Positions 20,309-48,418 of a stretch of 64,000 bases of DNA are shown piece by piece. This DNA is from Promethearchaeota archaeon (GTDB lineage: Archaea; Asgardarchaeota; Lokiarchaeia; Sigyniarchaeales; SOKP01): positions 32,001-96,000 of the forward strand of contig JAEOUA010000007.1 in the NCBI GenBank assembly GCA_016839555.1, read 5' to 3'. A program made the translations under genes and the position numbers. Numbering within the stretch: the first letter of the stretch is position 1; each line of letters starts with the position of its first letter. The notes beneath the pieces are model-generated. The model saw nothing but the letters and a program-made list of their open reading frames with translations, made no database searches and was not told the origin of the DNA.

Positions 20309-20376
20309 AAATTATTTTTACTTGATATTCAAATTATTTTTAATTTTTTCCATTCTTTTAACTTCTCTTTTGGGTA
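20309..20376. repeat. Direct repeat, copy 2: current 3' end of the CaiB gene
   Basis: 62/68 nt identical to 18369-18436. Confidence 0.85.
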
Positions 20377-21549
20377 TTTTAGAAGATCACAATAAATTTT
20401 TTCATTATGTTGTCCAAATGTAGGTCCTGGTGCTAATACTTCTCCAGGTGTCTCTGAAAATCGTATTAATCTATTTGGGATTGTTGCTTTTTCAACATTA
20501 TATTCGGAGAAATCAAACTGATCACATAACATCCCCCTTGCTCTTAAATTAGGATGATTATAAACCTCATACATGCTTAACGACTCTCCACATGGAATTC
20601 TCTCTGCTTCAAGAAGTTTAATTGCTTCTTTAGAGGTGTAAGATTTTGTCCATTTTTCAATAATATCATCCAATAAATCTACATAATTAAATCTCTTTAT
20701 AGGGTTAGAAAATCGAGGATCTTTTACTAATTCTGGTTTCTGGAGAATATTCTCACATAATCTTTTAAATTGCCGCTCGGTTAACGTAGTCATCACAATT
20801 AATCCATCTTTAGTATGATATTGATTATAAATTGGTAAAAATTTCACCCCTAAATCTAATTTTTTCGCCATTGGCATAAATTCTCTTGCCTGGGCTCGCA
20901 TATTAATAGCAAACATTATATCATGCATAGAAATGTCTAAAAATTGACCTTTACCAGTTTTTTCTCTATAATAAAGTGCCTGACTAATACCGATTGCTGC
21001 AACGTGACCTGCAGAGTAATCAGCTACAGGTAATTTTGGTGGTCCTTCTTTTAAATCCAACGTATCTAATATCGCTGCTTCTGCTTGAATTATAATATCG
21101 AAAGCGGTTTTCTTTGTATATCTTTCCAACCCCTCATTTCCATATCCAGATATTTTACAATAAATTAATCGAGGATTTAACTCCTTTAAAACATCATATC
21201 CAAGTCCCCATCTTTCCATTGTGCCCTTGACGAAATTCTCTACTATAATATCCGATTTTATTACAAGGTTTTTAAAGATTTCTTGTGCCTGTTGTTCCCG
21301 TAAATTTAAGGATATTGATTTTTTCCCACGGTTTAATATTGAAAATAAGGGAAAGATAGTTTTATCATACATAGAAAAGTAGCGAAAGGCTTCCCCGAAA
21401 GGAGGAGGATTTAGTATAACCACCAAATGCGGTTATATTTCTACCTTTATAACTTCCGCTCCTTGATCTGCGAAGAAAATGCTAGTCCACGGGCCACTAA
21501 TAAACTGACTACAATCTAATAATCTTATATTTTCAAAAATTTTGGGCAT
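20329..21549 (-). CDS. CaiB/BaiF (class III) CoA-transferase, interrupted by a 30-nt candidate intron; exons 21549-21439 and 21408-20329, 396 aa spliced
   Basis: Upstream ATG gives MPKIFENIRLLDCSQFISGPWTSIFFADQGAEVIKVE, which joins PPPFGEAFR...NRGKKSISLNL...DIIVENF. Confidence 0.9.
21409..21438 (-). other. Candidate 30-nt BHB-type intron in the CoA-transferase mRNA
   Basis: Hairpin tataaccgc/gtggttata containing an in-frame TAA; relaxed BHB; removal restores VIKVEPP. Confidence 0.7.
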
Positions 21550-21717
21550 GATATTATTAAAATTGAATTATTTTACATTTTAATTTTTTTATAAAATTTT
21601 TAATTTTTTATCGCTTTAAAGAGGCTCTAATCTATCAAAAAAAAAGTTAAAATTCTAATTAAATTTTTTACAAATCAATAATTTGAGAAATTACAGAGAT
21701 TATTTAGGTTTTGTTTT

Positions 21718-23199
21718 ATGGAAATTTTGGATTTCATGGCTTATGAATTGATACAAAAGATAAAAAACAAAGAACTTAAAATTGAGAATATAATTCGGCA
21801 AACATTCAAAAGAATTGAAGCGACAGAATCAACCTTACATTCATTTGTTCATTTATCTAAAGATGAAGCATTAGAAAAGGCTAAAAAATTAGATAAAGAC
21901 TTAGCAAAAGGAAAACCTATAGGAAAATTATATGGTCTGCCGATTGCAATAAAAGATTGTATCTGTGTAAAGAATTCACCTACCACATGTTCTTCCAAAA
22001 TTTTAGAGGGATATAGACCTCCCTATAATGCTACGGTCGTAGAAAAATTAGTAAATGAAAATAATGCTATTTGTATTGGGCGTACAAATATGGACGAGTT
22101 TGCGATGGGCACTTCTACAGAGAATAGTTGCTATGGACCAACTTATAATCCTTGGAATGTAGAATATGTTCCAGGGGGTTCTAGTGGAGGTTCTGGAGCT
22201 GCAGTGGCTTCTGGACAAGCAATTTTTGCCTTAGGAAGTGATACTGGAGGGAGCATAAGATGTCCGGCAGCATATTGTGGCGTGGTTGGTTTAAAACCGA
22301 CTTATGGGCGTAATTCTCGATATGGATTAGTTTCTTATGCCAATTCATTAGAGCAAATTGGACCGATTACCCGCTGTGTTAAGGATACAGCTTTACTAAT
22401 GGAAATTATGGCTGGAAATGATCCCTTGGATTCAACTACTGCAGATGTTCCTGTTGATAAATATACTGAACACTTAGATGAACCAATAAAAGGGATGACG
22501 CTGGGTATTCCTAAGGAGTTTTTTGGAGAAGGAATAGAATATGATGTTAAAAAAAAAGTAAACGATGCTATAGAAACTCTAAAAGATTTAAATGTAAAAA
22601 CCATAGAAGTCTCATTACCTCATTTGGAGTATACAATTCCTACCTATTATTTAATAGCAATGAGCGAAGCGAGCTCTAATTTGGAAAGGTTTGACGGATT
22701 GAGATATGGAAAGATGGCTGACGATTTAAGTGGTGATGTCTTTGATGTTTTTAAACGCACTCGAGGAAAAAATTTTGGTACAGAAGTGAAACGAAGAATT
22801 ATTCTCGGAACCTATGCGTTATCAGCAGGATATTATGATATGTTTTACATGAAAGCATTAAAAGTAAGAACTTTAATAAAAAACGACTTTCAAGAAGTGT
22901 TTAAAAAAACTGATGCGATTGTGTGTCCAACAATGCCCACAACAGCATTTAAAATAGGAGAATTGGTAGATGATCCCTTAAAAATGTATATGATGGATAT
23001 TTTGACTTGTCCTGTGAATATAGCAGGTTTACCAGCAATCTCTATTCCATGTGGGTTTGATTCCAACCATCTTCCAATTGGCTTTCAAATTATTGGAAAC
23101 TATTTTGCGGAAAAAAGTATTTTGAATTTAGCATATAAGCTTGAGCAAGAATTAAATCTTTATAGGAAATTACCGAATTTAGAAGAATTGGGGGAGTAA
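21718..23199 (+). CDS. gatA: Asp-tRNA(Asn)/Glu-tRNA(Gln) amidotransferase subunit A
   Basis: TNMDEFAMG, GGSSGGS, GSDTGGSIR, SSNLERFDG, EVKRRIILGTYALSAGYY. Confidence 0.96.
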   Translation: MEILDFMAYELIQKIKNKELKIENIIRQTFKRIEATESTLHSFVHLSKDEALEKAKKLDKDLAKGKPIGKLYGLPIAIKDCICVKNSPTTCSSKILEGYRPPYNATVVEKLVNENNAICIGRTNMDEFAMGTSTENSCYGPTYNPWNVEYVPGGSSGGSGAAVASGQAIFALGSDTGGSIRCPAAYCGVVGLKPTYGRNSRYGLVSYANSLEQIGPITRCVKDTALLMEIMAGNDPLDSTTADVPVDKYTEHLDEPIKGMTLGIPKEFFGEGIEYDVKKKVNDAIETLKDLNVKTIEVSLPHLEYTIPTYYLIAMSEASSNLERFDGLRYGKMADDLSGDVFDVFKRTRGKNFGTEVKRRIILGTYALSAGYYDMFYMKALKVRTLIKNDFQEVFKKTDAIVCPTMPTTAFKIGELVDDPLKMYMMDILTCPVNIAGLPAISIPCGFDSNHLPIGFQIIGNYFAEKSILNLAYKLEQELNLYRKLPNLEELGE

Positions 23200-23200
23200 G

Positions 23201-24652
23201 ATGTCTGATAATGAAGTTATTATTGGATTAGAAGTCCATATCCAATTAACTAATTTGAAAACAAAATTATTTTGTAGTTGTAATAGTGATTATCGTGGAA
23301 AAGAACCAAATACCCTTATATGTCCCATTTGCTTAGGTTTTCCCGGATCTCTTCCCGTTTTAAATAAAAAAGCCGTGGAATTTGCCATTCGGCTCGCATT
23401 AGCCTTAGATTGTGATATTAATAAACAATTCTTTTTCTTTAGAAAAAATTATTTTTATCCAGATTTGCCAAAAAATTTTCAAATAACCCAGTATAACAAA
23501 GCTGGTGGAAAAGCATTGGCGGACGGGGGATCTATAACCATAAAACTTGATAGTAAGCCAAAAACCATTCATTTAAATCGAATTCATTTAGAAGAAGATC
23601 CCGCTCGTTTAGTTCATCAAGGAAGTATTGCGAGTTCTCCTTATGCCTTAGTTGATTATAATAGATCTGGAATAACCCTTATTGAAATTGTTTCCGAACC
23701 AGAATTAAGTTCTCCAGAAGAAGCTAGAGAATATTTAAACCAATTAAAATCAATTATTCAATATACTGGGATTGCTGATTTAGATTTGGAGGGTTCATGT
23801 AGAGTAGATGCTAACATTTCATTAAAAGGACATGCTCGGACAGAAGTTAAAAATATTACGAGTTTTAAAGAAGTGGAAAGAGCATTAAAATGGGAAATTC
23901 AAAGACATAAAAATATGCTAAAACGCGATAAAGAGTTAATTCAAGAAACCAGACACTGGGATGATGTAAGGAGAGTCACAATTTCTCTTAGGACTAAAGA
24001 ATTCGAAAAAGATTATCGCTATTTTCCGGAAGAAGATTTAGTACCGGTTGAATTAGATCAATCTTTTATTGAAAAGGTAAAAGAAAAGCTACCTGAAATG
24101 CCAAATGAGAGAAAAAAACGCTTTCAAGAGCAATATAATTTGCCTGAATTCAATGCGGAAATTTTAGTAATTGATAAAAATATTGCGGATTTTTTTGAGA
24201 AAACAGTTAAAACAAATGAGAAATTTGATTCAGAGGACTTTAACCAGATTTGTAATTGGATAATGGGAGATATTTCTCGATGGTTAAATGAAAATAATAA
24301 AAGTATTAACCAAACGCAATTAACTCCAGAAATATTAAGTGAACTTATTATATTAATTAATGAAGGAAAAATCACGGGGAAAATCGCTAAGACTTTTGTT
24401 GATGATATGATGAAGGGGGAATCTCCTAAAAAGATTATGAAAAAGACTGGGAAAGAAAGAATTTCGGATAAAGAAACTATTAGAAAGATTGTAAGGGAAG
24501 TTATCGAAAAAAACCCTGAAATTGTAAAAGATTATAGAGAAAATCCCAAAGCACTCCAGGCTTTGGTTGGAAAATGCATGGCTAAAACAAAAGGTCAAGC
24601 AGATCCCAAAATCACTCGAGATATTATGCTCAAAGAGTTAGCAGAAAAATAG
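23201..24652 (+). CDS. gatB: Amidotransferase subunit B
   Basis: IGLEVHIQL, RKNYFYPDLPK, IHLEED, DYNRSG, DYRYFPE. Confidence 0.96.
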   Translation: MSDNEVIIGLEVHIQLTNLKTKLFCSCNSDYRGKEPNTLICPICLGFPGSLPVLNKKAVEFAIRLALALDCDINKQFFFFRKNYFYPDLPKNFQITQYNKAGGKALADGGSITIKLDSKPKTIHLNRIHLEEDPARLVHQGSIASSPYALVDYNRSGITLIEIVSEPELSSPEEAREYLNQLKSIIQYTGIADLDLEGSCRVDANISLKGHARTEVKNITSFKEVERALKWEIQRHKNMLKRDKELIQETRHWDDVRRVTISLRTKEFEKDYRYFPEEDLVPVELDQSFIEKVKEKLPEMPNERKKRFQEQYNLPEFNAEILVIDKNIADFFEKTVKTNEKFDSEDFNQICNWIMGDISRWLNENNKSINQTQLTPEILSELIILINEGKITGKIAKTFVDDMMKGESPKKIMKKTGKERISDKETIRKIVREVIEKNPEIVKDYRENPKALQALVGKCMAKTKGQADPKITRDIMLKELAEK

Positions 24653-24890
24653 CTCTAACAAATTTTTTTTCGAAATTATAATATAGAGCTTTAGTTTCCC
24701 CCTTATGAAAGAATTTTACCTTATAAATACAGATACAAAAAAAATAATGTGCTGTGCATTAATATCATTTAATTTAATGATCATACTTGAGTAAAATTTA
24801 ATAGATTTGAAATCGAAAATATGCATTAAGTAATAAAAATAAAATGAAAAAATCAAACGCTTACGAAATAAAAAATAAAGGTAAAAATTT

Positions 24891-26879
24891 ATGAGTGAAG
24901 AACGCAAAAAATTATGGGAACCCTCCAGAGAATGGATACAAAATGCGCAAGCAACTAAATTCATTGAATTCGTAAAAAAAAATTATGATACGAATATAAA
25001 AGATGGTAAAGAGCTTTACAAATGGTCCGTTGAAGATATATCGGAATTTTGGGCTGCCCTTTGGGATTTTACTGATATAAAAGCCTCAAAGAGTTATGAT
25101 AAAGTAGTTGAAAATCTTAGTGTATTTCCGGGGACAAAATGGTTTCCTGGAGCTAAGCTAAATTTCGCTGAAAACTTATTAAGATATAAGGACGAACAGT
25201 TAGCTTTTATCTTCCAAGGAGAAATGAGAGTTACTCAAAAAATGACTTACAAAGAGCTAAATAAGAAAGTAGCACAATTGGCAAAATCACTTCGAGATAT
25301 GGGTGTTAAGAAGGGGGATCGAGTGGTCTCCTATATTCCAAATCTGATTGAAACTCCAATGGCAATGTTGGCAGTTGCAAGTATAGGAGCGATTTGGGCA
25401 TCATGTGGAGCTGAACTACAAGCAAGAGCCGTTATAGATAGATTTGGTCAAATAGAACCAAAAGTCCTTTTCGCAGTTGATGGTTATTTTTATAAAGATA
25501 AGGCTTTCGATACGATTTCTAACGCAAAAGAAGTAGTTGAGGCCATACCATCTATTGAAAAAGTAATAGTAGTTTCATATGTTTCTGAAAATAAACCTGA
25601 TATCAGCAGTATTCCAAATGCTGTCCATTGGGATGATTTTATTTCAAAAGAAGATCTCAAAGAACCCGAATTTGAACAATTGCCCTTCGAACATCCCATT
25701 TATGTAATGTTTTCAAGTGGAACCACCGGAAAACCTAAAAGTATGGTACAAAGTGCAGGAGGAGTTCTTATTAATCATCTTAAAGAATTGATCCTTTCCA
25801 CTGATTTAAAACGAAGCGATGTAATAAATTATATAACTGCCCCCTCTTGGATGATGTGGAATTGGCTTATAAGTTCTTTAGCTGTGGGAGCAACTATTTT
25901 TCTCTATGATGGAAATCCCTTATATCCGGATCCTTTAAGAATGTTTGAATTGATACAAAAATACGGGATCACAATTTTTGGAGTATCAGCTACCTATCTT
26001 CATACTTTAATGGGTCAAGGATTAAAGCCTAAAGAGCAATATGATCTATCCAGCTTAAGGGAAATTTCGCAAACTGCAAGCACTTTAAGTCCAGAAGGAT
26101 TTGAATGGTGCTATAATCAAATTAAAGAGGATTTATACTTCAATTCAATTTCAGGGGGTACTGATATTAATGGCTGTTTTGCCGGAGCATTACCAATTCT
26201 TCCCGTATATTCAGGAGAATTACAGGGAAAAGCATTAGGGATGAAGGTTCAAGCATACGATACCGAAGGAAAACCTGTAAAAGATCAACAAGCTGAGTTG
26301 GTTTGCGAGGCACCAGCTCCCTCCATGCCAATATACTTTTGGGGAGACGATGATAATATGAGCAAATACAAATCTGCTTATTTTGAATTTTATGATGCCT
26401 TGGGGATAAATGTATGGCGACACGGTGACTGGATTGTAGAACATAGCGATACTGATGGAATCACTTTCTGGGGACGCTCTGATGCTACTTTAAAACCTTC
26501 TGGAGTGCGAATTGGTACTTCAGAAATATATAATGTGGTAGAGCAACTTCCGGAGGTTGTTGATTCATTAGCGATTGGACTGCCTGATGAAAAGGGAAAT
26601 GTAGCGGTAATATTGTTCACACAATTATGTGAAGGAATACAAATGACAGATGAAATTAAGGAAAAAATTAAAACGACGCTACGACAAAAAGCATCACCAA
26701 GACATGTTCCAGCTCAGATTATTGAAGTCCCTGAAGAAACTATTCCCTATACTTTCTCTGGCAAGAAGGTTGAAATCGCAGTCACGAAAATTCTCCGTGG
26801 TATGCAGGTAGCAAATAGAGGAGCATTGCGAAATCCCGACTCTCTTGACTTTTTTGAAGATTTACGAGGAAAAATATAA
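24891..26879 (+). CDS. Acetoacetate--CoA ligase (AMP-forming)
   Basis: WFPGAKLNFAENLL, FSSGTTGKPK, SISGGTD, GRSDATLKPSGVRIGTSEIY, ASPRHVP. Confidence 0.9.
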   Translation: MSEERKKLWEPSREWIQNAQATKFIEFVKKNYDTNIKDGKELYKWSVEDISEFWAALWDFTDIKASKSYDKVVENLSVFPGTKWFPGAKLNFAENLLRYKDEQLAFIFQGEMRVTQKMTYKELNKKVAQLAKSLRDMGVKKGDRVVSYIPNLIETPMAMLAVASIGAIWASCGAELQARAVIDRFGQIEPKVLFAVDGYFYKDKAFDTISNAKEVVEAIPSIEKVIVVSYVSENKPDISSIPNAVHWDDFISKEDLKEPEFEQLPFEHPIYVMFSSGTTGKPKSMVQSAGGVLINHLKELILSTDLKRSDVINYITAPSWMMWNWLISSLAVGATIFLYDGNPLYPDPLRMFELIQKYGITIFGVSATYLHTLMGQGLKPKEQYDLSSLREISQTASTLSPEGFEWCYNQIKEDLYFNSISGGTDINGCFAGALPILPVYSGELQGKALGMKVQAYDTEGKPVKDQQAELVCEAPAPSMPIYFWGDDDNMSKYKSAYFEFYDALGINVWRHGDWIVEHSDTDGITFWGRSDATLKPSGVRIGTSEIYNVVEQLPEVVDSLAIGLPDEKGNVAVILFTQLCEGIQMTDEIKEKIKTTLRQKASPRHVPAQIIEVPEETIPYTFSGKKVEIAVTKILRGMQVANRGALRNPDSLDFFEDLRGKI

Positions 26880-27040
26880 TTTTACTTCAATATTTTTTTT
26901 AGAAAAATCCTAAAAAAATTGACTTATATTAAAAATATATTTCATAATTTCCTTTTTTTTAAATCTAAAAATTTATAAATATCAAATCGAAGAATTTAGT
27001 AGGGTTAGTTTTGATATTTGAGATTTAAATTAAGAATAAT

Positions 27041-27307
27041 ATGTTTTCAATTCATTTCATGAGAACGCATAAATTAAACAGATGGAACTATAGTGAAACA
27101 GCTAAAAAATGGGTTTATGTTAATCTTAAAAATGGCAAAAGATATTACAAGTATCAGAACACCAATCCTACAAAATTTCATGAGCTAATAGTAAAATTAG
27201 AACATCTAAATCAACAATTACAGACTGAAACAGATCACGAAAAAAAGAAAGAAATTTTTAAAAAAATGCAAAAGATTAGCCATCAAATGCAAAATATGAA
27301 AAAATAA
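27041..27307 (+). CDS. Small hypothetical protein, paralog of 29613-29870
   Basis: KLN.W..SE...KWVY..LK.GK motif shared with the paralog. Confidence 0.75.
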   Translation: MFSIHFMRTHKLNRWNYSETAKKWVYVNLKNGKRYYKYQNTNPTKFHELIVKLEHLNQQLQTETDHEKKKEIFKKMQKISHQMQNMKK

Positions 27308-38378: not shown

Positions 38379-39383
38379 ATGTATGATCGCGAACAAATGG
38401 AAGAAATTTTAAAAGAAAACTGTGTTAATCTGCGCTTTCATGCTCGTGGAGGACAAGGAGGAGTCACAGCATCAAACTTATGCGTTGAAGCGTTTTATGG
38501 ATCTGGAATATGTCAACCTAGATTCGGTGCAGAACGAATGGGAAGTCCAACTGAAAGTTATGTACGATTAAGTCTTAATCAAGATTTGATAAGATCAAAT
38601 GAACAAGTATATGCCCCTCATTTTGTTTCTGTGTTAGATCCTTCATTACTCACAGAGGTGGATGTAACTGCGGGAGTTCATGAGGGAGGATGGTTAATAG
38701 TAAATACCACATTAAATCAACAGGATATTCAAGATCTTGTAGGTAGGAAAGATATTAATATCGCTACTATAGATGCTATTCGTATCGCCTTAGATGTTTT
38801 GGGGCGAAATATAACTAATACTATTATACTTGGCGCATTAATTAGAGTTTCTCAATTATTTAGTCTTGAAGAATTATCGGATGCCGTTATGAGAAGATTT
38901 AAAGATAGTATCGCAGCAAAAAATATTGAAGCGATTGAACAAGCAATTGAAGAGACTTGTGTGTATGATATTGGAATTGATATTGATTTTTCCCAAGATA
39001 CCAAAGTCGAATGGCAACAGGTAGAACTTGGCTTACCGGGTTATAAGGAAGTAGATAAAGCCGGAGTATGGTATTGCGATGAAGATGCCATTGAAGTGGG
39101 AAGTGATCAAGTTCATACGGGATCTTGGGGTGAATGGGACATAATATGGGATAAGGACACCTGTACTGATTGTGCTCAATGTTGGTTTATCTGCCCTGAT
39201 TTTGCAATTCTCAGAGAAAAAGGAGAGGATGGAAAATATCACATGGCAGGAATTGATAAAGATCATTGTAAATCGTGTCAGAATTGCTTAGAAATATGTC
39301 CTGTAAATGCAATTACAAAACAATTAAAACAAGGTCCAGCTTCATGTGCTGTACCTGAAGAAGAAGTCAAGGAGGCGAATTGA
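38379..39383 (+). CDS. porC: 2-oxoacid:ferredoxin oxidoreductase gamma-delta fusion
   Basis: RGGQGGVTAS, FGAERMGSP, NTIILGA; C-terminal CTDCAQCWFICP and CKSCQNCLEICP. Confidence 0.9.
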   Translation: MYDREQMEEILKENCVNLRFHARGGQGGVTASNLCVEAFYGSGICQPRFGAERMGSPTESYVRLSLNQDLIRSNEQVYAPHFVSVLDPSLLTEVDVTAGVHEGGWLIVNTTLNQQDIQDLVGRKDINIATIDAIRIALDVLGRNITNTIILGALIRVSQLFSLEELSDAVMRRFKDSIAAKNIEAIEQAIEETCVYDIGIDIDFSQDTKVEWQQVELGLPGYKEVDKAGVWYCDEDAIEVGSDQVHTGSWGEWDIIWDKDTCTDCAQCWFICPDFAILREKGEDGKYHMAGIDKDHCKSCQNCLEICPVNAITKQLKQGPASCAVPEEEVKEAN

Positions 39384-39791
39384 ATGAGTATAGAACCTAT
39401 GAAATCCAATTACACTAAGAAAAGTCAAAACCACTTCTCTTTTTCTAATCTCCTCATGAACAGTTCTTTTTTTCATCGAAACTAAAAATCATAAAACCGA
39501 AAAGAGAGTCACTATATTATAAAAATAAAGAAGCTTTTTTTAAAACAGTTTAACCAATTCTTTAAAAACAAAGAAACAATAAATATATAAATTATTCATT
39601 ATAAAGATACTTGCAGTACTCTTTTACCAAACTTTCTATTTGTTCTTTAGATACTCTTTAATAGTATTATTGCAAACAAAAAATTTAATCCTTTGCTTAG
39701 TACCAGATGTAATTTTATATGGTAAAGTTTTAAGAACATCATTAATGCACTTAATTTTTTCGTTTTTATTCATATTTTCTAACTACCGCTA

Positions 39792-39833
39792 TGTTCACAT
39801 AAATATCAACATTGTTCACATAAATATAAACTC
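39792..39833 (+). repeat. Left imperfect inverted repeat with two TGTTCACATAAAT units
   Basis: 35/42 match to the reverse complement of 42864-42905. Confidence 0.75.
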
Positions 39834-40143
39834 ACAAACCATCACATCTAACACAAAATTCTAAAAAAGCAATTCTAATTGTGATAATGGTGTGTTGGTG
39901 AAAGGAGACTTATTATCTTCTCTTGATGAATGGAACATAAATATAAGATATCTATTTTCTTAGCTTCTTTTTCATAGAAAAAAGAATCTTGATGATAAAT
40001 TAATGATATGTCTCCTTAAACATAAAAGTGCAAATAAAGCAGAAGGAGGGGTAAATCATCCGTTGGCTTCACATGTCTATTTTTTAATGAATGAATAAAC
40101 CGAATTTAATTCTCAATAAACAATAAAAAGGAGATATAAGAAG

Positions 40144-40293
40144 ATGAATAGCAACGAATTATATGAGCTATATTACAAGGAGGAAAATCTCGTAAAAGTA
40201 TTTGATACTGTTTTTAAAAGGCTAAACCTTAATGAAAGGATAATAAGCCAATTAGAGGAAGAGATCCATCAACTAAAGGAGAAATGCGGTTAG
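40144..40293 (+). CDS. 49-aa hypothetical coiled-coil protein
   Basis: MNSNELYELYYKEENL...QLKEKCG; AGGAG upstream. Confidence 0.4.
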   Translation: MNSNELYELYYKEENLVKVFDTVFKRLNLNERIISQLEEEIHQLKEKCG

Positions 40294-40686
40294 CAAAGAA
40301 TATCCAATATTCTGAAGATAATCGGAGAGAGAATGCTAGGGTGAATATAATGTTCTATTAAATATGGTTATATATATATTTAAAATCAGTGGTTTTTTAG
40401 ATATTAATACGTATCACTCTATTAAGGCTCTTTTCCTCTGATTTGTTTTATTCTTTTGAATAAAAAAATATTATTCTCTAAGAAAGATGCAATTAAAAAA
40501 GGAGATAAATAGATAAGGATTTCCTCCTCAGATTTAATATATCATATCAGATGAAAACATTTAAAGCTCGCAAGGAATATTTACATAAAGGAAGTTTTTT
40601 AATAAAATTTTATAATATAAATCTATTAATACTATAAAAATAAGCGATAAGAAACTTGAAAAGATTTATGATGAGACCGTATTCTT

Positions 40687-41745
40687 CTAATTCTTCGGAT
40701 TTAATATTTTTTTAAATAAGTCGTATCGCTTTAATGATTCCTCCTTAAAAAACAAAATATTCTGAAATGAATAGGACGGATTACCAATAGCGTGCTGTTT
40801 TTTGGCAAATTCGATGAGGAATTCTCTATATTGCTTAGCACAATCAAATATGGAAAGGCCCTCAGTCGGATCGACTATAGCTGCGAGTAACTGTTGATCA
40901 TTAGAGAAAGTCTTCCACCACTTTTTATAATGAAATTTTGAACCAAAGGCTTTCTCGGCATTTTCAAACATATAAGAACCTATGCTGGCCATGTACTTAT
41001 TTAACTTTAAAGTTATGCGATATTTTTCAGCTAAGGATTTTCCATTAAATCTCTTGTTGAAGAAAAAATACTTTTCTTCCCTTATAGTGCTCTTGTCTGT
41101 CCCAGGCAAACATATAAGATAATTGTATGTAATTGGTAAATCCAACTCATTTCCAATTTTAACTATACGTTTAAACGATTTTAAATAATTGTTTATTCCT
41201 GAATATATTTGTCCATCATTCTTACCTAAAATTTTCCCCATTCTATAGAGTAAGGTTTTCGAGCATGATTCAAGCCCAAAACTAGGAGTTATATCAAATT
41301 TTTTATAGTTTTTTAAATCCTCTTCAGAGCAAAAATCAACACGATCGCTGACTGTGATGTAAAATGACAAGCCCCCCTCCTTCTCGACCATTTTTCCCAA
41401 TTTTTTAAAAAATTTTCTCCGAGCGGACTTTTTAGGTAAGAATATCATATCTGAAATATACAATCGTGTGATTGGCAGCCAGTCTGTTTCCTTTATAGCT
41501 TTTAATTCCTTTATACACTTCTCTGACGATTTAACTCTAACTTTCCTATAACAATTCACAAAATTTAAAGAATTAATACAAAATTTGCATCTATAGTTAC
41601 ATCCTCTAGAAAAATCTATCCATAATTTATTATCATTTGTTAGGTTTTTTTCATATTTCTTAAAAAGATCAAAATTTATTATAGGTAATTCGTCAAGGTT
41701 TTGGATGATTATTCCGATTTTATAACAGAGGCAATTGAAATGGAA
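40687..41745 (-). pseudogene. 5'-truncated radical SAM protein (B12-binding class-like)
   Basis: Frame stays open upstream of the ORF-track start: NLDELP...FSRGCNYRCKFC (CxxxCxxC at 41601-41578); no start codon and no N-terminal domain. Confidence 0.75.
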
Positions 41746-41981
41746 TTAGATGTTGATTTAGATGTTGATTAAGATAGCGTGTTTTGGCGGGTAAAGAGAT
41801 TGGTTTGTATATGTTGAGTTTGCTGGAAAAATAGGGGGCTTTTTCTTTTTTTGCACGAAACAGCTAAAGGCGCAGCAAGGGGTCAGAGCAATGATGGGAT
41901 AGAAAATTGATCTTGATACAAGAAATAGTAAAATATTTACCATTTGCTGGATGATTGAGAGATGAAAAGGTGGGGTAAAAT

Positions 41982-42188
41982 ATGGTTGAAGACTTGATTG
42001 GGTTTAGGCTAGGGCGAATTAAAAGTTATATTGCCAAAATACTGGAACGGTGGAGCGAAACGGACGCTTCTGTATTCTTGAAAAAGGCAAAGGACGGTAC
42101 CTATTCTGAGGTGGAAAGTGACGCCGTTATGCTGAGACAGTTATTGCTCGATGAGAAGAGGCTAGAGAGGCTATGTGACACTCTTTAG
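41982..42188 (+). CDS. Small protein, probable orphan antitoxin
   Basis: 68-aa ORF in a locally GC-richer patch; no partner gene follows. Confidence 0.45.
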   Translation: MVEDLIGFRLGRIKSYIAKILERWSETDASVFLKKAKDGTYSEVESDAVMLRQLLLDEKRLERLCDTL

Positions 42189-42863
42189 TGTGTCTTTTTG
42201 ATGTTGTTGCGCTTTATAATATCATCTACTTTATAATATCATACAAAACATTCTTTATTTTTAATTTGGAATTTTTAGGAATTTGTATAGTGGGATTAGA
42301 TTGATGATATGAAAGTCAACATAAAAGCAGAAGAGATGATTCAAATGTTCTTTAGTTGATTAGCTATGGGGGTGAAGCTGTGTCTGATGATAATTGTTTT
42401 ATCATAATCGGTGCCCGATATTATTATTGAGATCCTCTGTTTTTAGAGAGAACTTTTTTATTTAAATTTATACATTATGAATTTTCTTGTTATTTTAAGA
42501 CGTGTTTTATAATCAGTATTTCTATTTAAACGATCTCTAACTTTAAATATTTTTTAAATATATTGCAATATGGATCTACCAACTTTAAACAGAATAAACT
42601 CTTATTCCCCTTTCTGTCACGGAGCAAACCCATACTTGGCAAGAATAATTTATATGCTTTCCTAAGAACAAATAATGCTTAAGACTATAAAAAAGAAAAA
42701 AATAGGAAATAAAAGTATTAAGCCCCTAAGTTAGCAATTCTTTCATGTTTTTGATTCAATAAAATATTTAAATTACTTAAAACTTTTGGGGTGAAGTTTT
42801 TGAGGTTTTAAATTCTAATTTGATTGTTCTTTTAGATCATTGATAGTTTTTGTATTGATTTAT

Positions 42864-42905
42864 GAGTTCATATAGATATGAACATTGTTAACATTTATGT
42901 GAACA
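42864..42905 (-). repeat. Right imperfect inverted repeat
   Basis: Reverse complement reads tgttcacataaatgttaacaatgttcatatctatatgaactc. Confidence 0.75.
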
Positions 42906-43059
42906 GGGCAAGTTTATATGAATATAAACTTCATTGACGCTGGTACAAAACATCGAATCGAAAAGTGGGGGTTTTTTAATTTTCATGAATTAGCTATAAT
43001 CGTGTTCAATGATCAATTCAGCTAATATAATAATAAACTTTTAAAATAAAATTAAAGAT

Positions 43060-43272
43060 ATGAATCATTTTAGATATAATAACTATAGAAATACCATTCC
43101 AGAAAAATCATTAGAAAGAATGAAAAAATATTCGGAAATTAATTGGAAAAAAATAGATCGAAGTGCCCTTGAAAATTATCTTGAAAAATTAGAAAAGACT
43201 GATAAATTAACAACAAAATCTAATATTTATTATAATCTCTTCCAGTTTTTTCTTCTAATTCTAGTAGGTTGA
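43060..43272 (+). pseudogene. Degenerate RHH-type antitoxin remnant
   Basis: IPEKSLERMKKYSEINW....R.ALENYL pattern with non-matching termini. Confidence 0.45.
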
Positions 43273-43450
43273 TTTTAATAGTTTTCAGAAATGACCATAA
43301 TTCATTTTTGCTAATTTTTGCTTTAGGATCTAAAATATAATCTGTAATATTTTCATCAATAAACTTCTTTATGGTTTTCAATAATAATCGACATTCCTCG
43401 GAGATAAAGACTTTTTTATAAAAAGGTTTTAATTAATTTTAAAAGAAAAA

Positions 43451-45847
43451 ATGATTTCGCATTTTTTATTCATTGATGAAAATAATTTCAAGGATATTAT
43501 AAAGAAAGATCTAAATAAGATAGTAGGATTAAGTTTTAAAGAGAAATGTCAAATAATTGACATGATTAGTTCTAAAAAGTTTACTAATGAACTCAAATTT
43601 AAATTAAAAGACATCTTAAAGATTGTCTCAAATAAAGAATTGTTGGTTCTTATGGGAAAAATAGATAATAAATCATTACAAAATGAAGTTAATTATGAAA
43701 AAAAGATAAAGGATACCTTAGCTACATCTATAGAAGAAAATAAATCTTCTAAGAGAAAATATATTGATGGTGGAAAGATTGATTTAGACTATTATGGTAA
43801 CATTATCGTAAATAAATATAAGGATATAATAAGAAAAAGAAGAAAGGCTCTCGGATTTCCTACTACACAAAAAAGATTATCCGATATGACTCCTATTATG
43901 CATAATCAAGTAAGAGATATTGATCAGATTGTTTCTAAGAGTGGAAGAACTAGATATTTATGGTTTGGTTTAGTCTATCAAATAACGGTGGTCGAAAAAG
44001 ATGGTAACGAAGGTAAAAAATATGCTGGAATGACAGCTCAAACTTTAAAGCAGAGATGGCATTGGTATGTTAAAACTGCATTGGAAAAACAAGAACATTG
44101 GCACTACCCCATAATAAAATTAATCAGGAAAGTATTATTTGATGAAACGAAATATGATGAAACAGATTTAAAAATAAGGGAAATAGATTGGAATTGGGCA
44201 AAGATTAATGCAATTCTGGAACCTCGATTTAAAAGAGAAGTAAAAATCATTTGTTTTAATTCAAAATCATTAAAAGAAGAGGAAAGAAAATATATAAGAA
44301 AATATAATTTAATTAAAGATGGATTAAATATTAGGGCGGGGGGAGAGGGCGGTCATGCAATCGATTTACCCATGTTTAAAATTGCTAAAATGATCACAAA
44401 AGGAATGAGTTTAAAAGAAATGGAAAAGATCATCAATTGGGTTACTCATACTACTATTTGGGACAGAATTAATGATTATTGGATATCCTATGAGAATTCT
44501 TTATTACTTTTCTTAAGACCTATGCTAAAGTTATTAATTATTTCTAAATTTGAATTATATGAAATAAATGAGACATATAATCGATTTATGCATGATACAA
44601 TAAAGACTTTTTTTGAAGGTCTTTCTTATAGACAATTAATAGATTTGAAGGAAGAAGAATGGAATTCTTTAGATTATGAACATCTCTCTCCTCGGACAAT
44701 AACTGGGCAAGTTAAATATATGATCCCTGGAAAAATCCTGAAAGATTTAATTCTAAGGAATAAAACAGCTATCTCTGCTATTGATGATCCCTCAATAGAG
44801 GATTCACTTTCTATTTATTGTTCGGATGTTGCTCGGCAGCAAATCGTATATCAAATACAGCAACAATTAGATTATGATAGTTGGATAAATGCTAGGAGAC
44901 ATATTTGTGGGAATTTTATTATTAAAAATCTAAAAAATCGTACTATAGAAGCAAAGGAGATATATATGAGAATAGGATATGATGAACCATCTGCTTATAC
45001 TCATACCACGCTAACTCAAATCTATTTTTTTGGTTTAACAACTGAAAAATTAAAAGAAATATTACAAAAAAATCCCTATATTGAAAAATATATTGATCTC
45101 AAAAAGTACATAGATAAATTAAAATCTAAAAAAACCAAATTACCAAAGACTAAAATTGATAAATTATTATTAAGAAAATTAAAAAGTAAAGATATGATAC
45201 AAGAGATAATAGGATGGTCAACTAAGGATTTCTTGAAAGAAGTTAAAAAATATTATCCTAACTTTAAAGAAGCAAAATGGATTGTTAAAGCACCCTATAT
45301 AATAAATAAATTTAGAAATATTTCCCTTCCCTATGATTCTAATGAATTGAATAAAATCGTGATTCATCTAGGTTATAGTAATTCTGTAAAAATTAGTTCA
45401 ATTATTAGAGATATGTTATTTGGTATGGGTTTGAAGGATGCTATAGCATTAGTAAGATATTATCCCGGAATTAAAACGTATCAAGATGCTTTAGAGAAAA
45501 TTAAAGAACTTAACAATTTTAGAAGACTTTTTAAAGCTGGAACATCAAAGAAAGAAACTCTAAATAAGATATTAGATATCTTTTTGAAAAAAGAATTTAT
45601 AACTATTAAACAAATAGCTAATCACACAGGATTTCTTAAAAGAACAATTAGAGGGTACTTGAAGGATTTAACTTCTCAAGGAATTTTGGAGAGAAAAATT
45701 CTTGATGGAAATCCTTTTTGGAAATTAAAAGTTTCAAAGAAAAAATTGGAGAAATTATTTGATGATTCTCCTATCAAATATCCATGGGATGATGATCCTA
45801 GTTTTTCGTTAAAAAATAAAATAAAACCTATAAAAGATAAAGAATAG
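43451..45847 (+). CDS. Large GIY-YIG endonuclease-domain protein with helical repeats and a C-terminal wHTH
   Basis: GLVYQI...KKYAGMT...LKQRW...LKEEERKYI...GLNIRAGG; C-terminal ITIKQIANHTGFLKRTIRGYLKDL. Confidence 0.75.
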   Translation: MISHFLFIDENNFKDIIKKDLNKIVGLSFKEKCQIIDMISSKKFTNELKFKLKDILKIVSNKELLVLMGKIDNKSLQNEVNYEKKIKDTLATSIEENKSSKRKYIDGGKIDLDYYGNIIVNKYKDIIRKRRKALGFPTTQKRLSDMTPIMHNQVRDIDQIVSKSGRTRYLWFGLVYQITVVEKDGNEGKKYAGMTAQTLKQRWHWYVKTALEKQEHWHYPIIKLIRKVLFDETKYDETDLKIREIDWNWAKINAILEPRFKREVKIICFNSKSLKEEERKYIRKYNLIKDGLNIRAGGEGGHAIDLPMFKIAKMITKGMSLKEMEKIINWVTHTTIWDRINDYWISYENSLLLFLRPMLKLLIISKFELYEINETYNRFMHDTIKTFFEGLSYRQLIDLKEEEWNSLDYEHLSPRTITGQVKYMIPGKILKDLILRNKTAISAIDDPSIEDSLSIYCSDVARQQIVYQIQQQLDYDSWINARRHICGNFIIKNLKNRTIEAKEIYMRIGYDEPSAYTHTTLTQIYFFGLTTEKLKEILQKNPYIEKYIDLKKYIDKLKSKKTKLPKTKIDKLLLRKLKSKDMIQEIIGWSTKDFLKEVKKYYPNFKEAKWIVKAPYIINKFRNISLPYDSNELNKIVIHLGYSNSVKISSIIRDMLFGMGLKDAIALVRYYPGIKTYQDALEKIKELNNFRRLFKAGTSKKETLNKILDIFLKKEFITIKQIANHTGFLKRTIRGYLKDLTSQGILERKILDGNPFWKLKVSKKKLEKLFDDSPIKYPWDDDPSFSLKNKIKPIKDKE

Positions 45848-46049
45848 GAATATTATTATATTTTAAAAGAAAATTAAGAATGATACTATAATAATAATTA
45901 ACTAAATTGAGATTAAATATTCCTATAGTTTCATTTTTAATCTAAAAAGTATAAAAATTAATAAGAAGTAATATTAATAATGTAAAAAAATGAAAATATA
46001 TATTTTTTTAAAAAAATGAAGATATACAACTTAAAATCAAGATCAATAG

Positions 46050-47288
46050 GTGATATTTATTAGTATTCAGCCGATGAAGCTTTTCTTCCGTGAAATAAAA
46101 GAGCCTATTAGAACCACTATGATAGGAAATTATGCCGTGGCAGGCGGCGTTACCCAGACGGATCCTGATGTCATTTGTGCATTTCCAATAACTCCCCAAA
46201 CCCAATCAGTCGAAGGATTATCTGACGTGGTACATCAAGGTAGATTAAAAGCTGCATTTGTAAATGTAGAATCTGAATTAGCAGCCATGAGTTTTTCTAC
46301 TGCTGCGTGTGCTGCAGGTGCTCGTACATTCACTGCGACAGCTTCTCAAGGATATCTTTTAATGACAGAGGCGTTGCCAATGGCGGTGGGTTGGAGAGTA
46401 CCCTTAACCATGATGATTAGTGCCCGAGCTTTTAATTCCCCAAATCTCTCAATTTGGAATAGCTGGGAATTTACTGAAACGAATTCCGAAATTGGATGGA
46501 ATACCATCGTCTCAGAAAATGTTCAAGAGACCTATGATGCAGCCATTTTATCGGTGATGATGTCAGAGGATTCATTATTTCCAACAATGTTTATCCACGA
46601 TGGGTTTATTATTTCTCATTCCGTACAAAATGTGACTTTAATACCTGATGAAACCGTGCGAAAATTAACTCCTAAGAAACCACGACACCGCATTACGCCA
46701 AAAAAACCGGGAACTTGGGGCGGAATAGTCACTCCAAGCTATTTTATGGAATTTAGAAAAAGCCTCGATGTAGATAAAGAGCCAGTATTAGGTATTATGG
46801 AAGATGTTTTCGACCGATTTGAGAAAGCAACGGAGAGAAGATATGATCTTATTGAAACCTATAACTTGGATAACCCCTCAAATACCGCCTTTATAACGAT
46901 GGGATCCATGTGCGGAAATATAGTAAGTTGGATGACTAAAAATAAAGATGTTGGATTAATTAAGCTTCGCACATTTAGACCTTTTCCTTATGAACAATTA
47001 CAGCAAATCGTAGAAGACTATGGTTTAGAAAAATTAATCATTTTAGAAAAATCAGATTCTCTGAATGGAATGCTACCTCCGTTCTCGATGTCAATAGCAT
47101 CAGCACTTTACCCGCTGGGTACCTTGTTCAGAAGCTTTATCGTAGGATTAGGTGGCAGGGATGTCACCAGAGATGAGTTAAACATCGCACGAAAAAAAAT
47201 GGAAAATGTAAAAGATATGAAAGGTAAGCTTTATATGTATCTCGGTGTGAGAGAAACTAAAAATAAAATTTATGGGGTGAATATGTAA
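46050..47288 (+). CDS. porA: 2-oxoacid (pyruvate):ferredoxin oxidoreductase alpha subunit; true start possibly ATT at 46059
   Basis: AFPITPQT, VESELAAMS, TATASQG, DGFIISH, GLGGRDV. Confidence 0.93.
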   Translation: MIFISIQPMKLFFREIKEPIRTTMIGNYAVAGGVTQTDPDVICAFPITPQTQSVEGLSDVVHQGRLKAAFVNVESELAAMSFSTAACAAGARTFTATASQGYLLMTEALPMAVGWRVPLTMMISARAFNSPNLSIWNSWEFTETNSEIGWNTIVSENVQETYDAAILSVMMSEDSLFPTMFIHDGFIISHSVQNVTLIPDETVRKLTPKKPRHRITPKKPGTWGGIVTPSYFMEFRKSLDVDKEPVLGIMEDVFDRFEKATERRYDLIETYNLDNPSNTAFITMGSMCGNIVSWMTKNKDVGLIKLRTFRPFPYEQLQQIVEDYGLEKLIILEKSDSLNGMLPPFSMSIASALYPLGTLFRSFIVGLGGRDVTRDELNIARKKMENVKDMKGKLYMYLGVRETKNKIYGVNM

Positions 47289-47289
47289 A

Positions 47290-48418
47290 ATGTCAAATGG
47301 AGATAGAAATATTATAACGATGGAAGATATATTAGCGAGAGAAGGTAAATGCAATGTACTATTTCTAAACTATGATAACGAGGCATTTATGAACACCGGA
47401 ATCCAAGGGAATTCTACATTTTAGTAGAATTCTGGAAAAATCTGGTGGTACGCCTCCATATGCAAGTACAACTACAGGACCAGCAGGAGAAAAAATACCC
47501 GGAAAAGTTGGAGTGAAACAAGATTTAGTCACTCCATTTGCATTTTATGGTTCAAAAAAATTGTTTTTAGCAACGGTAAATCCAGCATATCCTCTTGATT
47601 TAATGGGAAAAATAATGGATGCCCTTAAATCCGACGGATCAGCTTTTATACAGGCCTTAAGTGATTGTATGAGAGGCTGGAGGCATGATGCTAAGGATGC
47701 TTTGAAAATCTCTAAACTTGCGACTGATAGTGGGTATTGGCCTTTATATACCATTCGAGTTGAAGAGGGTATACCCGTATTTTCATATTATAGAGGACTT
47801 GATATTGATAAAGATAAGTTTGTGGAATTTTTGCAATCTATGGGGCGCTTTAGGCATCTTTTTAAACCAAAATTTATGGAAAAAGAAATCAATGAAATAA
47901 TCTTTCAAACGGAACAAAGAAACAAGAAGATAAAGGGGTTAATTGAACAGTTTGGCGCTGATAAACCTAAAGACATCTATAGAATTGATAGAAAAGCATT
48001 AAAACCACAGGAGCATTTGCTTCCTGGACATGGCTTATGCCCAGGGTGCGGTGCGGGCATGGTTCTTTTTCAAATGGCTACAGCAGCTTATCAAGTAGCT
48101 GGTAATAATATGATCTATGTAAATAATACAAGCTGCTCGGAAGTTTCAACATCAAAAGATAATGTGACCTCTTGGAAAGTACCTTGGGTACATCATCTCT
48201 TTGAATCAGGTGCCACCGTTGCTGATGCTCTGGCAACTGCTTATAAAATTTTGAAAAAGAAAGGTTTATTTGGAAAACCAATGGAAGAAGAGGTGCCTTA
48301 TGTTATTCATATCGGTGGGGATGGCAGTACTTATGATATAGGATTTCAATTTTTGAAAGCAGCATTAATTCGGACCAGTACTTTCATGGAAATGAGCGAA
48401 CTTTTAAACGAAAAATAA
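47290..48418 (+). CDS. porB: 2-oxoacid:ferredoxin oxidoreductase beta subunit, circularly permuted and interrupted by a 31-nt candidate intron; exons 47290-47407 and 47439-48418, 365 aa spliced
   Basis: ATG 1 nt after the porA stop gives ...YDNEAFMNTGIQ, which joins ESGGTPPYASTTT...; GHGLCPGC and GGDGSTYDIG lie in the C-terminal half. Confidence 0.9.
47408..47438 (+). other. Candidate 31-nt BHB-type intron in the porB mRNA
   Basis: Exon helix caccgga/tctggtg, 4-bp central helix tcca/tgga, 3-nt bulges agg and aaa, 9-bp intron stem gaattctac/gtagaattc. Confidence 0.85.

What the first reader, a model, noticed from the sequence alone, without database searches (positions are those of the whole stretch)
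20329..48418. Candidate system: recurrent tRNA-type mini-introns in conserved motifs of Asgard protein-coding genes
Two unrelated metabolic genes within 27 kb each carry a ~30-nt stop-containing hairpin. Each sits in a highly conserved motif about 37-39 codons from the start, and the remaining coding sequence is intact. Two cases in one 64-kb window suggest more across the genome, hidden as apparent pseudogenes. Unspliced messages would terminate early, so EndA/RtcB activity could gate expression. This is relevant to intron origins in the lineage closest to eukaryotes. The genome-wide extrapolation is inference.
Basis: inference. Interest (0 to 1): 0.9.

Follow-up and report, generated by a model that had tools for sequence, protein, structure and literature searches.

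The report
tRNA-type mini-introns in Asgard mRNAs
Two ordinary metabolic genes of an uncultured Loki-type (Asgard) archaeon are each broken by a 30-31-base hairpin shaped like a tRNA intron; comparison with dozens of related genomes indicates that the messenger RNA is cut and rejoined by the tRNA-splicing enzymes, which papers document for only one archaeal coding sequence.

Summary
Observation confirmed. A family III CoA-transferase (minus strand) carries a 30-nt insert at 21409-21438. A circularly permuted PorB (plus strand) carries a 31-nt insert at 47408-47438. Both inserts contain stop codons and sit 37 and 39 codons from the start, inside invariant motifs.

Cutting at the canonical bulge-helix-bulge (BHB) positions gives a 396-aa and a 365-aa protein. 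Both align without gaps to insert-free orthologs.

The CoA-transferase insert is at the same site in 27 of 49 related loci. It is always 30 or 31 nt, and its sequence has diverged while its pairing is kept (8 of 13 pairs compensatory; 0 of 500 shuffles as good). Exon codons that pair with the intron are fixed only where the intron is present.

PorB relatives carry such inserts at three sites within about 20 nt.

The genome encodes EndA alpha and beta subunits and RtcB.

By restored motifs I verified four more cases elsewhere in this genome: argG, AMP phosphorylase, a MoxR ATPase and RNase HII. Earlier notes of this scan had already reported such introns on other DNA of this genome.

Not shown: RNA-level splicing, because no RNA run was listed. 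The idea that splicing gates expression was not tested.

The parts
21439..21549 (-). CoA-transferase (family III) exon 1: 37 codons, ATG at 21549, ends ...GAEVIKVE
   Evidence: Pfam CoA_transf_3 profile positions 2-33, E 2e-8. The peptide is nearly invariant in 20 intron-bearing orthologs, while third codon positions vary.
21409..21438 (-). 30-nt BHB-type intron with an in-frame TAA (21435-21433). Layout: 1 nt + 9-bp stem + 5-nt loop + 9-bp stem + 4 nt (CUAA) + 2 nt
   Evidence: A 30- or 31-nt insert sits at the same site in 27 of 49 orthologous loci, and covariation supports the fold.
21441..21444 (-). Exon side (GUAG) of the central 4-bp helix. It pairs with intron 21414-21411 (CUAA: 3 bp plus G.A here; CUAU, CUAC or CCAU in relatives). 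The 5' bulge is 21440-21438 and the cut falls after 21439
   Evidence: helix 94% paired across 21 sequences, with GUAG/CUAU changing to GUGG/CCAU as a double change; the Val codon is GUR in 27/27 intron-bearing loci against 7/22 intron-less loci.
20329..21408 (-). CoA-transferase exon 2 (359 codons plus stop), beginning PPPFGEAFR
   Evidence: Pfam CoA_transf_3 positions 29-366, E 1e-78. The spliced 396-aa product aligns with 0 gaps to intron-less orthologs.
47290..47407 (+). PorB-like (2-oxoacid:ferredoxin oxidoreductase beta, circularly permuted) exon 1: 39 codons plus the first base of codon 40
47408..47438 (+). 31-nt near-canonical BHB intron containing TAG TAG. Inner hairpin 47409-47417/47424-47432, loop 47418-47423
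   Evidence: The minimum-free-energy fold equals the BHB, z = -4.2. Removal gives ...NTGIQ-E-SGGTPPY, identical to 75 intron-less orthologs. A metagenome relative (L095) has a 31-nt insert at the same site with 4 compensatory stem changes.
47402..47405 (+). Exon side (UCCA) of the central 4-bp helix, pairing with 47433-47436 (UGGA). Bulges are 47406-47408 (AGG) and 47437-47439 (AAA). Cuts fall after 47407 and after 47438
47394..47400 (+). Outer exon-exon helix, 5' strand (CACCGGA), pairing with 47441-47447 (UCUGGUG); one A.A mismatch at 47401/47440
47439..48418 (+). PorB exon 2 (the rest of the 365-aa protein plus stop)

Best explanation
[quoted passage not shown] After transcription, four exon-1 bases (positions -6 to -3 from the 5' junction) pair with four bases near the 3' end of the insert. 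A 9-bp hairpin inside the insert and, in porB, a 7-bp exon-exon helix flank this 4-bp helix. This leaves two 3-nt bulges on opposite strands. The heterotetrameric (alpha-beta)2 splicing endonuclease EndA cuts after the second base of each bulge, and RtcB joins the exons (and probably circularises the 30-31-nt intron). The joined mRNAs encode a 396-aa family III CoA-transferase and a 365-aa PorB. Unspliced mRNA would give only a 38- or 44-residue peptide, so both enzymes depend on splicing. The introns belong to a small population in this Lokiarchaeia-type lineage. I verified at least six in this genome. They lie in the most conserved motifs, are inherited over long divergence, are lost precisely, and appear to be gained repeatedly at nearby sites. 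Shown here: the anatomy, the exact restoration of the protein sequence, the covariation, the presence of the enzymes, and the presence of the insert in DNA of independent samples. Inferred: the cutting and joining itself, and which enzymes perform it.
For: (1) The porB minimum-free-energy fold is a textbook hBHBh' motif, with z = -4.2 and 0 of 200 shuffles as good. (2) Canonical cuts remove 31 nt and give AUC CAA G|AA UCU GGU, i.e. NTGIQESGGTPP, which is the sequence of 75 intron-less orthologs. They remove 30 nt from the CoA-transferase and give VIKVE|PPPFGE, against VIKVE-x-PPFGE in 22 intron-less orthologs. Both spliced proteins align with 0 gaps. (3) In 27 of 49 CoA-transferase loci from many genera the insert is at the same site. 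It is 30 nt (8 loci) or 31 nt (19 loci), so the exons are in the same or in different frames, yet exon 2 is always intact. That fits only if the insert is removed. (4) On 21 distinct sequences, 84.6% of cells pair, against 27-49% when partners are slid. Eight of 13 pairs show double changes, and 0 of 500 shuffles reach the observed score. The exon-intron helix covaries (GUAG/CUAU against GUGG/CCAU). (5) Exon codons are constrained only where the intron is present: Val GUR in 27/27 against 7/22, and Lys AAG in 27/27 against 8/22 (the loci are not independent). (6) The exon-1 peptide is conserved in intron-bearing alleles, with mostly third-position changes. (7) Two EndA paralogs are present. 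One is closest to the catalytic subunit of the Aeropyrum pernix heterotetramer (3p1z_B, 5e-40). The other is divergent and, by my reading of its sequence, lacks the catalytic His. RtcB matches at 2.8e-169. Asgard EndA is reported as (alpha-beta)2 with the broad-specificity L1 loop (PMC5829648). (8) The same 1+9+5/6+9+4+2 layout restores SGGL-D-TS in argG, DKHS-T-GG in AMP phosphorylase and DEIDKAD|IEFPNDLL in a MoxR ATPase. In RNase HII a 28-nt insert with the same kind of central helix (AGGG/CCCU), whose inner hairpin I did not resolve, restores GLDEAGR|GPVLGP. (9) The porB insert is present in DNA of a second sample and of another study, with no intron-less joint.
Against: No RNA evidence: no RNA run holding this DNA was listed, so neither spliced junctions nor circular introns were seen. 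The CoA-transferase motif in this genome is relaxed. Its central helix has 3 bp plus a G.A mismatch, and its outer helix has only 1-2 bp, so cleavage needs a broad-specificity enzyme whose substrate range in Asgard archaea has not been measured. A genome-wide BHB descriptor plus frame-restoration test showed no enrichment over shifted-cut or random controls.
Confidence: 0.85

Rival explanations
1. The inserts are removed from the RNA, but not by EndA/RtcB. Another nuclease/ligase pair, or an unknown structure-specific process, recognises the hairpin.
For: The CoA-transferase motif in this genome is not a strict BHB, and its outer helix is nearly absent. The uniform 9-bp stem is not a known EndA requirement.
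Against: The only conserved features are those EndA reads: a 4-bp helix between exon and intron with a 3-nt bulge on each side. The canonical EndA cut positions, and no other register, reproduce the ortholog sequence in all six cases checked. Relaxed motifs are known substrates of (alpha-beta)2 enzymes (PMC5829648).
Confidence: 0.06
2. Programmed translational bypass: the ribosome hops over the hairpin, as in phage T4 gene 60 or the byp elements of yeast mitochondria, and the mRNA is never cut.
For: A stop codon lies shortly after the junction, there is a stable hairpin, and the insert length (30-31 nt) is in the range of known bypass gaps.
Against: There are no matching take-off and landing codons. 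GAA is followed 30 nt later by CCU in the CoA-transferase. In porB the junction splits a codon (G|AA), and no CAA or CAG landing site exists in 47408-47445. Bypass does not explain the conserved, covarying pairing between exon 1 and the 3' end of the insert.
Confidence: 0.04
3. The genes are dead or split. The hairpin is an inert palindromic insertion (MITE-like) and only exon 2, or nothing, is expressed.
For: Taken at face value, both genes read as interrupted. In this genome a TTG inside the insert could start the exon-2 ORF.
Against: Exon 1 and exon 2 are both under purifying selection in about 27 intron-bearing genomes at 66-84% protein identity, with no other lesions. Exon 1 holds the essential N-terminal motif. 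The 31-nt versions offer no consistent start codon. There is no terminal-repeat or target-duplication signature common to the inserts.
Confidence: 0.03
4. Assembly or sequencing artefact.
For: The genome is a metagenome-assembled genome of 12 contigs.
Against: The same insert occurs in independent MAGs and metagenome contigs, and in contigs of two further runs from two studies.
Confidence: 0.01

Closest known systems
BHB intron in the cbf5 (pseudouridine synthase) pre-mRNA of Crenarchaeota (Watanabe 2002; Yoshinari 2006; Yokobori 2009, PMC2738675)
   Same: A short BHB intron inside a coding sequence, in an organism with a hetero-oligomeric (alpha-beta)2 EndA. Its distribution among relatives is patchy, with gain and loss.
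   Different: The lineage differs (Lokiarchaeia-type Asgard) and so do the genes (metabolic enzymes). There are several genes per genome, multiple insertion sites within one motif, and a very uniform 30-31-nt architecture. Splicing of cbf5 was shown experimentally; splicing here was not.
Noncanonical tRNA introns of Asgard archaea (PMC11291895; bioRxiv 10.64898/2026.10.13.758758)
   Same: The same presumed enzymes and the same motif, a similar length (tRNA introns here are 8-43 nt), and repeated gains.
   Different: The host is an mRNA. The exon half of the motif is made of codons, so splicing constrains synonymous sites, and an unspliced RNA gives a truncated protein.
BHB intron in the 5' UTR of Haloferax volcanii HVO_1309 mRNA (PMC7714728)
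   Same: An mRNA shown to be an EndA substrate.
   Different: That intron lies in the untranslated leader, not in the reading frame.
HAC1/XBP1 unconventional mRNA splicing in eukaryotes (IRE1 cut, RtcB or Trl1 ligation); from my own knowledge and the reference list of PMC5829648
   Same: Spliceosome-independent, hairpin-guided excision of a short frame-changing intron. Joining is by the tRNA ligase, and expression depends on the cut.
   Different: The nuclease (IRE1) and the motif differ, and that splicing is a regulated stress response. No regulation is shown here.
Programmed translational bypass (T4 gene 60; mitochondrial byp elements); from my own knowledge
   Same: A short stop-containing hairpin inside an intact gene.
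   Different: Matching take-off and landing codons are required and are absent here. The exon-intron pairing seen here has no role in bypass.

Membership tests
Archaeal BHB intron (EndA/RtcB-spliced) | [quoted passage not shown] | tested here: met
   porB: UCCA/UGGA with bulges AGG and AAA, a 9-bp inner helix and a 7-bp outer helix; this is the minimum-free-energy fold. CoA-transferase: relaxed form. GUAG/CUAA is 3 bp plus G.A in this genome and 4 bp (G.U or G-C) in most relatives. The outer helix is only 1-2 bp.
Archaeal BHB intron (EndA/RtcB-spliced) | Cuts after the second base of each bulge yield the functional RNA | tested here: met
   The predicted junctions reproduce the sequence of intron-less orthologs exactly, and the spliced proteins align without gaps.
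Archaeal BHB intron (EndA/RtcB-spliced) | Pairing maintained in evolution (compensatory change) | tested here: met
   8 of 13 pairs show double changes, 84.6% of cells pair against 27-49% when slid, and 0 of 500 shuffles match. porB in G000 against L095: 4 double changes in 9 stem pairs.
Archaeal BHB intron (EndA/RtcB-spliced) | Splicing endonuclease and RNA ligase encoded in the genome | tested here: met
   Two tRNA_int_endo genes, one alpha-like and one beta-like, and one RtcB gene.
Archaeal BHB intron (EndA/RtcB-spliced) | Excision and exon ligation seen at the RNA level | not testable with these tools
   No RNA run was listed for this DNA.
   348 vs 381-395; 3668 vs 3450; 1175 vs about 1157; 47 vs 55-61; 7 vs 5-6. 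The ORF-restoration criterion has a 1-3% chance rate in this 30% G+C genome. Five of the 7 hits of the strictest descriptor restore invariant motifs.
Programmed translational bypass | Matching take-off and landing codons flanking the gap | tested here: not met
   GAA...CCU in the CoA-transferase. In porB the junction splits a codon and no CAA or CAG landing site exists.
Self-splicing group I / group II intron or other known RNA family | Ribozyme core recognisable | tested here: not met
   The inserts are 30-31 nt, and Rfam gives no meaningful match.
cbf5-type pre-mRNA intron (as a homologous intron) | Same host gene and site | tested here: not met
   The host genes are a CoA-transferase and PorB. 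This is the same mechanism class, not the same intron.

The most novel reading that the evidence does not exclude
Lokiarchaeia-type Asgard archaea maintain a turning-over population of EndA-spliced mini-introns in protein-coding genes. The introns are repeatedly gained at hot-spots inside the most conserved motifs: three sites within about 20 nt of the PorB TPP motif and two sites in the CoA-transferase N-terminus. They are lost precisely, with at least 7 state changes on well-supported branches of the gene tree. They also shape synonymous codon choice in the flanking exons. If so, an intron gain/loss cycle in mRNAs that does not depend on the spliceosome operates in the closest prokaryotic relatives of eukaryotes, and many of their 'pseudogenes' are live genes. 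A further step, that splicing efficiency tunes expression of these enzymes, is possible but has no support yet.
Probability: 0.55. Interest if true: 0.9.

Novelty: new variant of a known kind. Interest (0 to 1): 0.8.

Why it matters
Papers in the searchable library document a BHB intron inside an archaeal coding sequence for one gene only (cbf5, Crenarchaeota), plus one intron in a 5' UTR in Haloferax. Here such introns interrupt several unrelated genes in one Asgard genome, are conserved across genera, and recur at neighbouring sites.

If confirmed, this has three consequences:
- Annotation pipelines miscall these genes as pseudogenes or truncated ORFs, which distorts metabolic reconstructions of Asgard archaea. 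POR, argG and RNase HII are core functions.
- mRNA expression becomes dependent on the tRNA-splicing machinery, as in eukaryotic HAC1/XBP1 splicing.
- It offers a tractable system for asking how introns enter and leave protein-coding genes in the lineage nearest to eukaryotes.

Tried and rejected
**Genome-wide BHB descriptor plus ORF-restoration tests, five versions**
- Strict hBHBh' motif: 16,169 sites, 348 restoring against 381-395 for shifted cuts.
- Hairpin-first, relaxed: 349,242 sites, 3,668 restoring against 3,450 at random positions.
- With a codon-usage filter: 1,175 against about 1,157.
- 9-bp or 8-bp stems: 47 against 55-61, and 134 against 123-146.
- Exact architecture with A-first bulges: 202 sites, 7 restoring against 5-6.
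- None showed enrichment. I do not take this as refutation. The criterion has a high chance rate, and the codon filter even dropped two true sites.

**Paralog-based search for split genes**
- I ran tblastn of 3,132 ORFs against the genome.
- It recovered only porB. The other 'split' hits were gene junctions or gene fusions in paralogs with in-frame TGA.

**RNA evidence**
- No RNA holder was listed. Contigs of DNA runs cannot show splicing.

**Rfam**
- Nothing meaningful matched at either site.

- The 798-aa ORF at 43451-45847 has no GIY-YIG Pfam hit, only a weak HTH_11. I did not pursue it.

**Target-site duplication**
- It is seen only where the 4-nt helix is palindromic (CAUG, porB site C), so it is not a general signature.

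**In-frame stop as selenocysteine or pyrrolysine, or read-through of the insert**
- Rejected. The inserts are 30 or 31 nt at one site and are absent from many orthologs.

**ABC_tran sampling**
- 0 of 20 domains are interrupted, so these introns are rare per gene.

**First scan attempt**
- It timed out.
Full report
**What is there.**
The window is G000:C6:32001-96000 of a 3.74-Mb, 30% G+C metagenome-assembled genome. Its nearest public relatives are labelled Promethearchaeota/Promethearchaeia, the current names for the Loki-type Asgard archaea.
- On the minus strand, a family III CoA-transferase is read as two ORFs in the same frame, 21549-21433 and 21426-20329. They match Pfam CoA_transf_3 positions 2-33 and 29-366.
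- On the plus strand, just after porA, a PorB-like gene is read as 47290-47424 and then, in the +1 frame, 47513-48418.
- The sequence shows a 30-nt insert at 21438-21409 with TAA as its second codon, and a 31-nt insert at 47408-47438 with TAG TAG.
- Each insert is a perfect 9-bp hairpin with a 5- or 6-nt loop.

**Geometry.**
- For porB, the minimum-free-energy fold of 47395-47450 is a textbook bulge-helix-bulge. It has an outer exon-exon helix CACCGGA/UCUGGUG, a central helix UCCA/UGGA, bulges AGG and AAA, and an inner 9-bp hairpin (z = -4.2; 0 of 200 shuffles as stable).
- Cutting after the second base of each bulge removes 47408-47438 and joins CAA G|AA UCU.
- For the CoA-transferase, the same layout gives GUAG/CUAA (3 bp plus a G.A mismatch), bulges AAA and AUC, and a 9-bp hairpin. 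The outer helix is only 1-2 bp, so this is a relaxed motif (z = -3.5).
- Both introns share the plan 1 nt + 9 bp + 5/6-nt loop + 9 bp + 4 nt + 2 nt.

**Test against orthologs.**
- Among 31 related genomes, CoA-transferase orthologs in six genomes of several genera carry an insert at exactly the same site. Others read VIKVE-x-PPFGE without interruption.
- Adding 40 loci from named public genomes gives 27 of 49 loci with an insert: 30 nt in 8 loci and 31 nt in 19.
- Because both lengths occur and exon 2 is always intact, the insert cannot be translated. It has to be taken out.
- The G000 products of the canonical cuts are 396 aa and 365 aa. They align with no gaps to intron-less orthologs, with 71-75% and 89% identity respectively.
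- For porB, 75 of 94 loci are intron-less and read NTGIQESGGTPP. That is base for base what the predicted cut produces in G000.

**Covariation.**
- I aligned 21 distinct CoA-transferase introns with 12 nt of each exon (A1). On this alignment the proposed structure pairs in 84.6% of cells, against 27-49% when partners are slid by 1-3 columns.
- Eight of 13 pairs show changes on both sides, and none of 500 column shuffles reaches the observed values.
- The exon-intron helix itself covaries (GUAG/CUAU against GUGG/CCAU).
- Exon codon choice depends on the intron. The Val codon that forms the helix is GUR in 27/27 intron-bearing loci but in only 7/22 intron-less loci. The preceding Lys codon is AAG in 27/27 against 8/22. 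These loci are related, so the P values are indicative only.
- The exon-1 peptide FISGPW..FFADQGAEVIKVE is almost invariant in intron-bearing alleles, while third codon positions vary. So exon 1 is still translated as part of the enzyme.
- The porB intron of G000 has one counterpart at the same site, in a metagenome contig (L095). It is also 31 nt. The central helix and bulges are the same, and four of the nine stem pairs have changed on both sides.

**Dynamics.**
- On a maximum-likelihood tree of the CoA-transferase, intron presence needs at least 7 changes on well-supported branches and 12 by parsimony.
- Intron-less sisters of intron-bearing alleles carry exactly the spliced sequence. This indicates repeated precise loss, lateral replacement, or both.
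- PorB relatives carry 30-31-nt inserts at three different positions within about 20 nt of the same TPP-binding motif: after AUGAA, after GGAA, and after CAAG. The hairpin sequences are unrelated, and each has a 3' segment complementary to its own upstream exon.
- Within the genus of G000 alone I see site B (G000), site A (G005, G002) and no intron (G001, G006).
- Some CoA-transferase orthologs have a second intron of 32-34 nt at LDCSQ|FISGPW. It is present or absent independently of the first.

**Machinery.**
- G000 has two tRNA-intron-endonuclease genes.
  - One (198 aa) is closest to the catalytic subunit of the Aeropyrum pernix heterotetramer (3p1z_B, 5e-40). By my reading of the sequence it keeps the Tyr/His/Lys residues.
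  - The other (208 aa) is divergent and, by the same reading, lacks the His, as structural beta subunits do.
- RtcB is present.
- Published work assigns Asgard archaea an (alpha-beta)2 EndA with the L1 loop, the type that accepts relaxed motifs (PMC5829648). The same enzyme type accompanies the cbf5 mRNA intron in Crenarchaeota.
- ARAGORN finds only 28 tRNAs in G000, 17 of them with introns of 8-43 nt. The genome is therefore already rich in such introns.

**Is it recurrent in the genome?**
- In this AT-rich genome there are 10^2-10^5 BHB-like hairpins, depending on stringency, and 1-3% of arbitrary cuts 'restore' an ORF by length criteria. About a dozen real sites are therefore invisible in the counts.
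- The hits themselves are informative. Of the 7 hits of the strictest descriptor, 5 restore invariant family motifs: the two in the window, argG (SGGL-D-TS, 30 nt), AMP phosphorylase (DKHS-T-GG, 31 nt) and a MoxR ATPase Walker B (31 nt).
- I also confirmed a 28-nt insert in RNase HII that restores GLDEAGR|GPVLGP, with a central helix AGGG/CCCU.
- I saw two more frame breaks in the MoxR gene.
- Earlier notes of this scan had already reported these cases and others (top6B, cdhB) on other pieces of the same genome. I used them as leads and re-derived four of them.
- The introns are nevertheless rare per gene: 0 of 20 ABC ATPase domains are interrupted.
- Whether they truly prefer conserved motifs or are only easier to recognise there cannot be decided here.

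**Artefact and rivals.**
- The porB insert is present without gaps in contigs of a second run of the same study. It is also present in a marsh metagenome of another study, including a diverged strain. No joint skips it.
- Translational bypass fails for lack of matching take-off and landing codons, and because the porB junction splits a codon.
- Pseudogene or inert-insert readings fail on purifying selection of both exons.
- Rfam gives nothing.
- What remains open is direct RNA evidence. No RNA run was listed.

**Known or new.**
- Five full-text searches and four papers read found BHB introns in archaeal mRNAs only for cbf5 in Crenarchaeota (PMC2738675) and for a 5' UTR in Haloferax (PMC7714728).
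- Work on Asgard introns concerns tRNA genes (PMC11291895; bioRxiv 10.64898/2026.10.13.758758).
- The mechanism class is therefore known. New here are its occurrence in several unrelated genes of an Asgard lineage, the multiple sites per motif, and the imprint on codon choice.

**Verdict.**
- Regulation by splicing and relevance to eukaryotic intron origins remain conjecture.

Noticed in passing
window 47290-48418; loci L013-L026: PorB is circularly permuted. It starts with ...NYDNEAFMNTG (the second half of the TPP motif) and ends with ...CPGCG...GDGSTYDIGFQ (the first half). The same layout, with open frames of about 356-402 aa, is kept in relatives of four families (27 of 31 genomes had a match). 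Pfam TPP_enzyme_C does not recognise it.
   Followed up: partly
L005:~1370-1410; also L031, L035, L038, L039, L048, L061, L063: A second intron site in CoA-transferase orthologs, at LDCSQ|FISGPW. It is 32-34 nt, with central helix GCUC/GRGY and bulges ACA and AAA. It is present or absent independently of the KVE|PP intron, and it is absent from the window's gene.
   Followed up: partly
L076, L111, L122, L139, L148 (site C); L014, L022, L024, L026, L150 (site A); L095 (site B): Three different intron positions within about 20 nt of the PorB FMNTGIQE motif in different lineages. Each has its own hairpin sequence and an exon-complementary 3' segment. At site C the 4-nt helix is the palindrome CAUG, which mimics a 6-nt target duplication.
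   Followed up: partly
window 39384-46049: A gap of about 6.7 kb separates the porG/D fusion gene (38379-39383) from porA (46050). It holds a 798-aa ORF (43451-45847) with no Pfam family except a weak HTH_11.
   Followed up: partly
G000:C12:~203143-203300 and G000:C7:~14731-14900 (outside the window): Two HdrA/MvhD-like gene junctions with an in-frame TGA in the motif ...AFLC.K*GYG.... They are candidate selenocysteine codons, not introns.
   Followed up: no
G000 whole genome: ARAGORN finds only 28 tRNA genes, 17 of them with introns of 8-43 nt. Many tRNA genes are probably too interrupted to be called.
   Followed up: no
G000:C10 minus strand around 139548 (outside the window): A MoxR-type AAA+ ATPase gene has a 31-nt intron after DEIDKAD. 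It shows two more frame breaks upstream, one before TGKT of the P-loop and one after YDTIKRL.
   Followed up: partly
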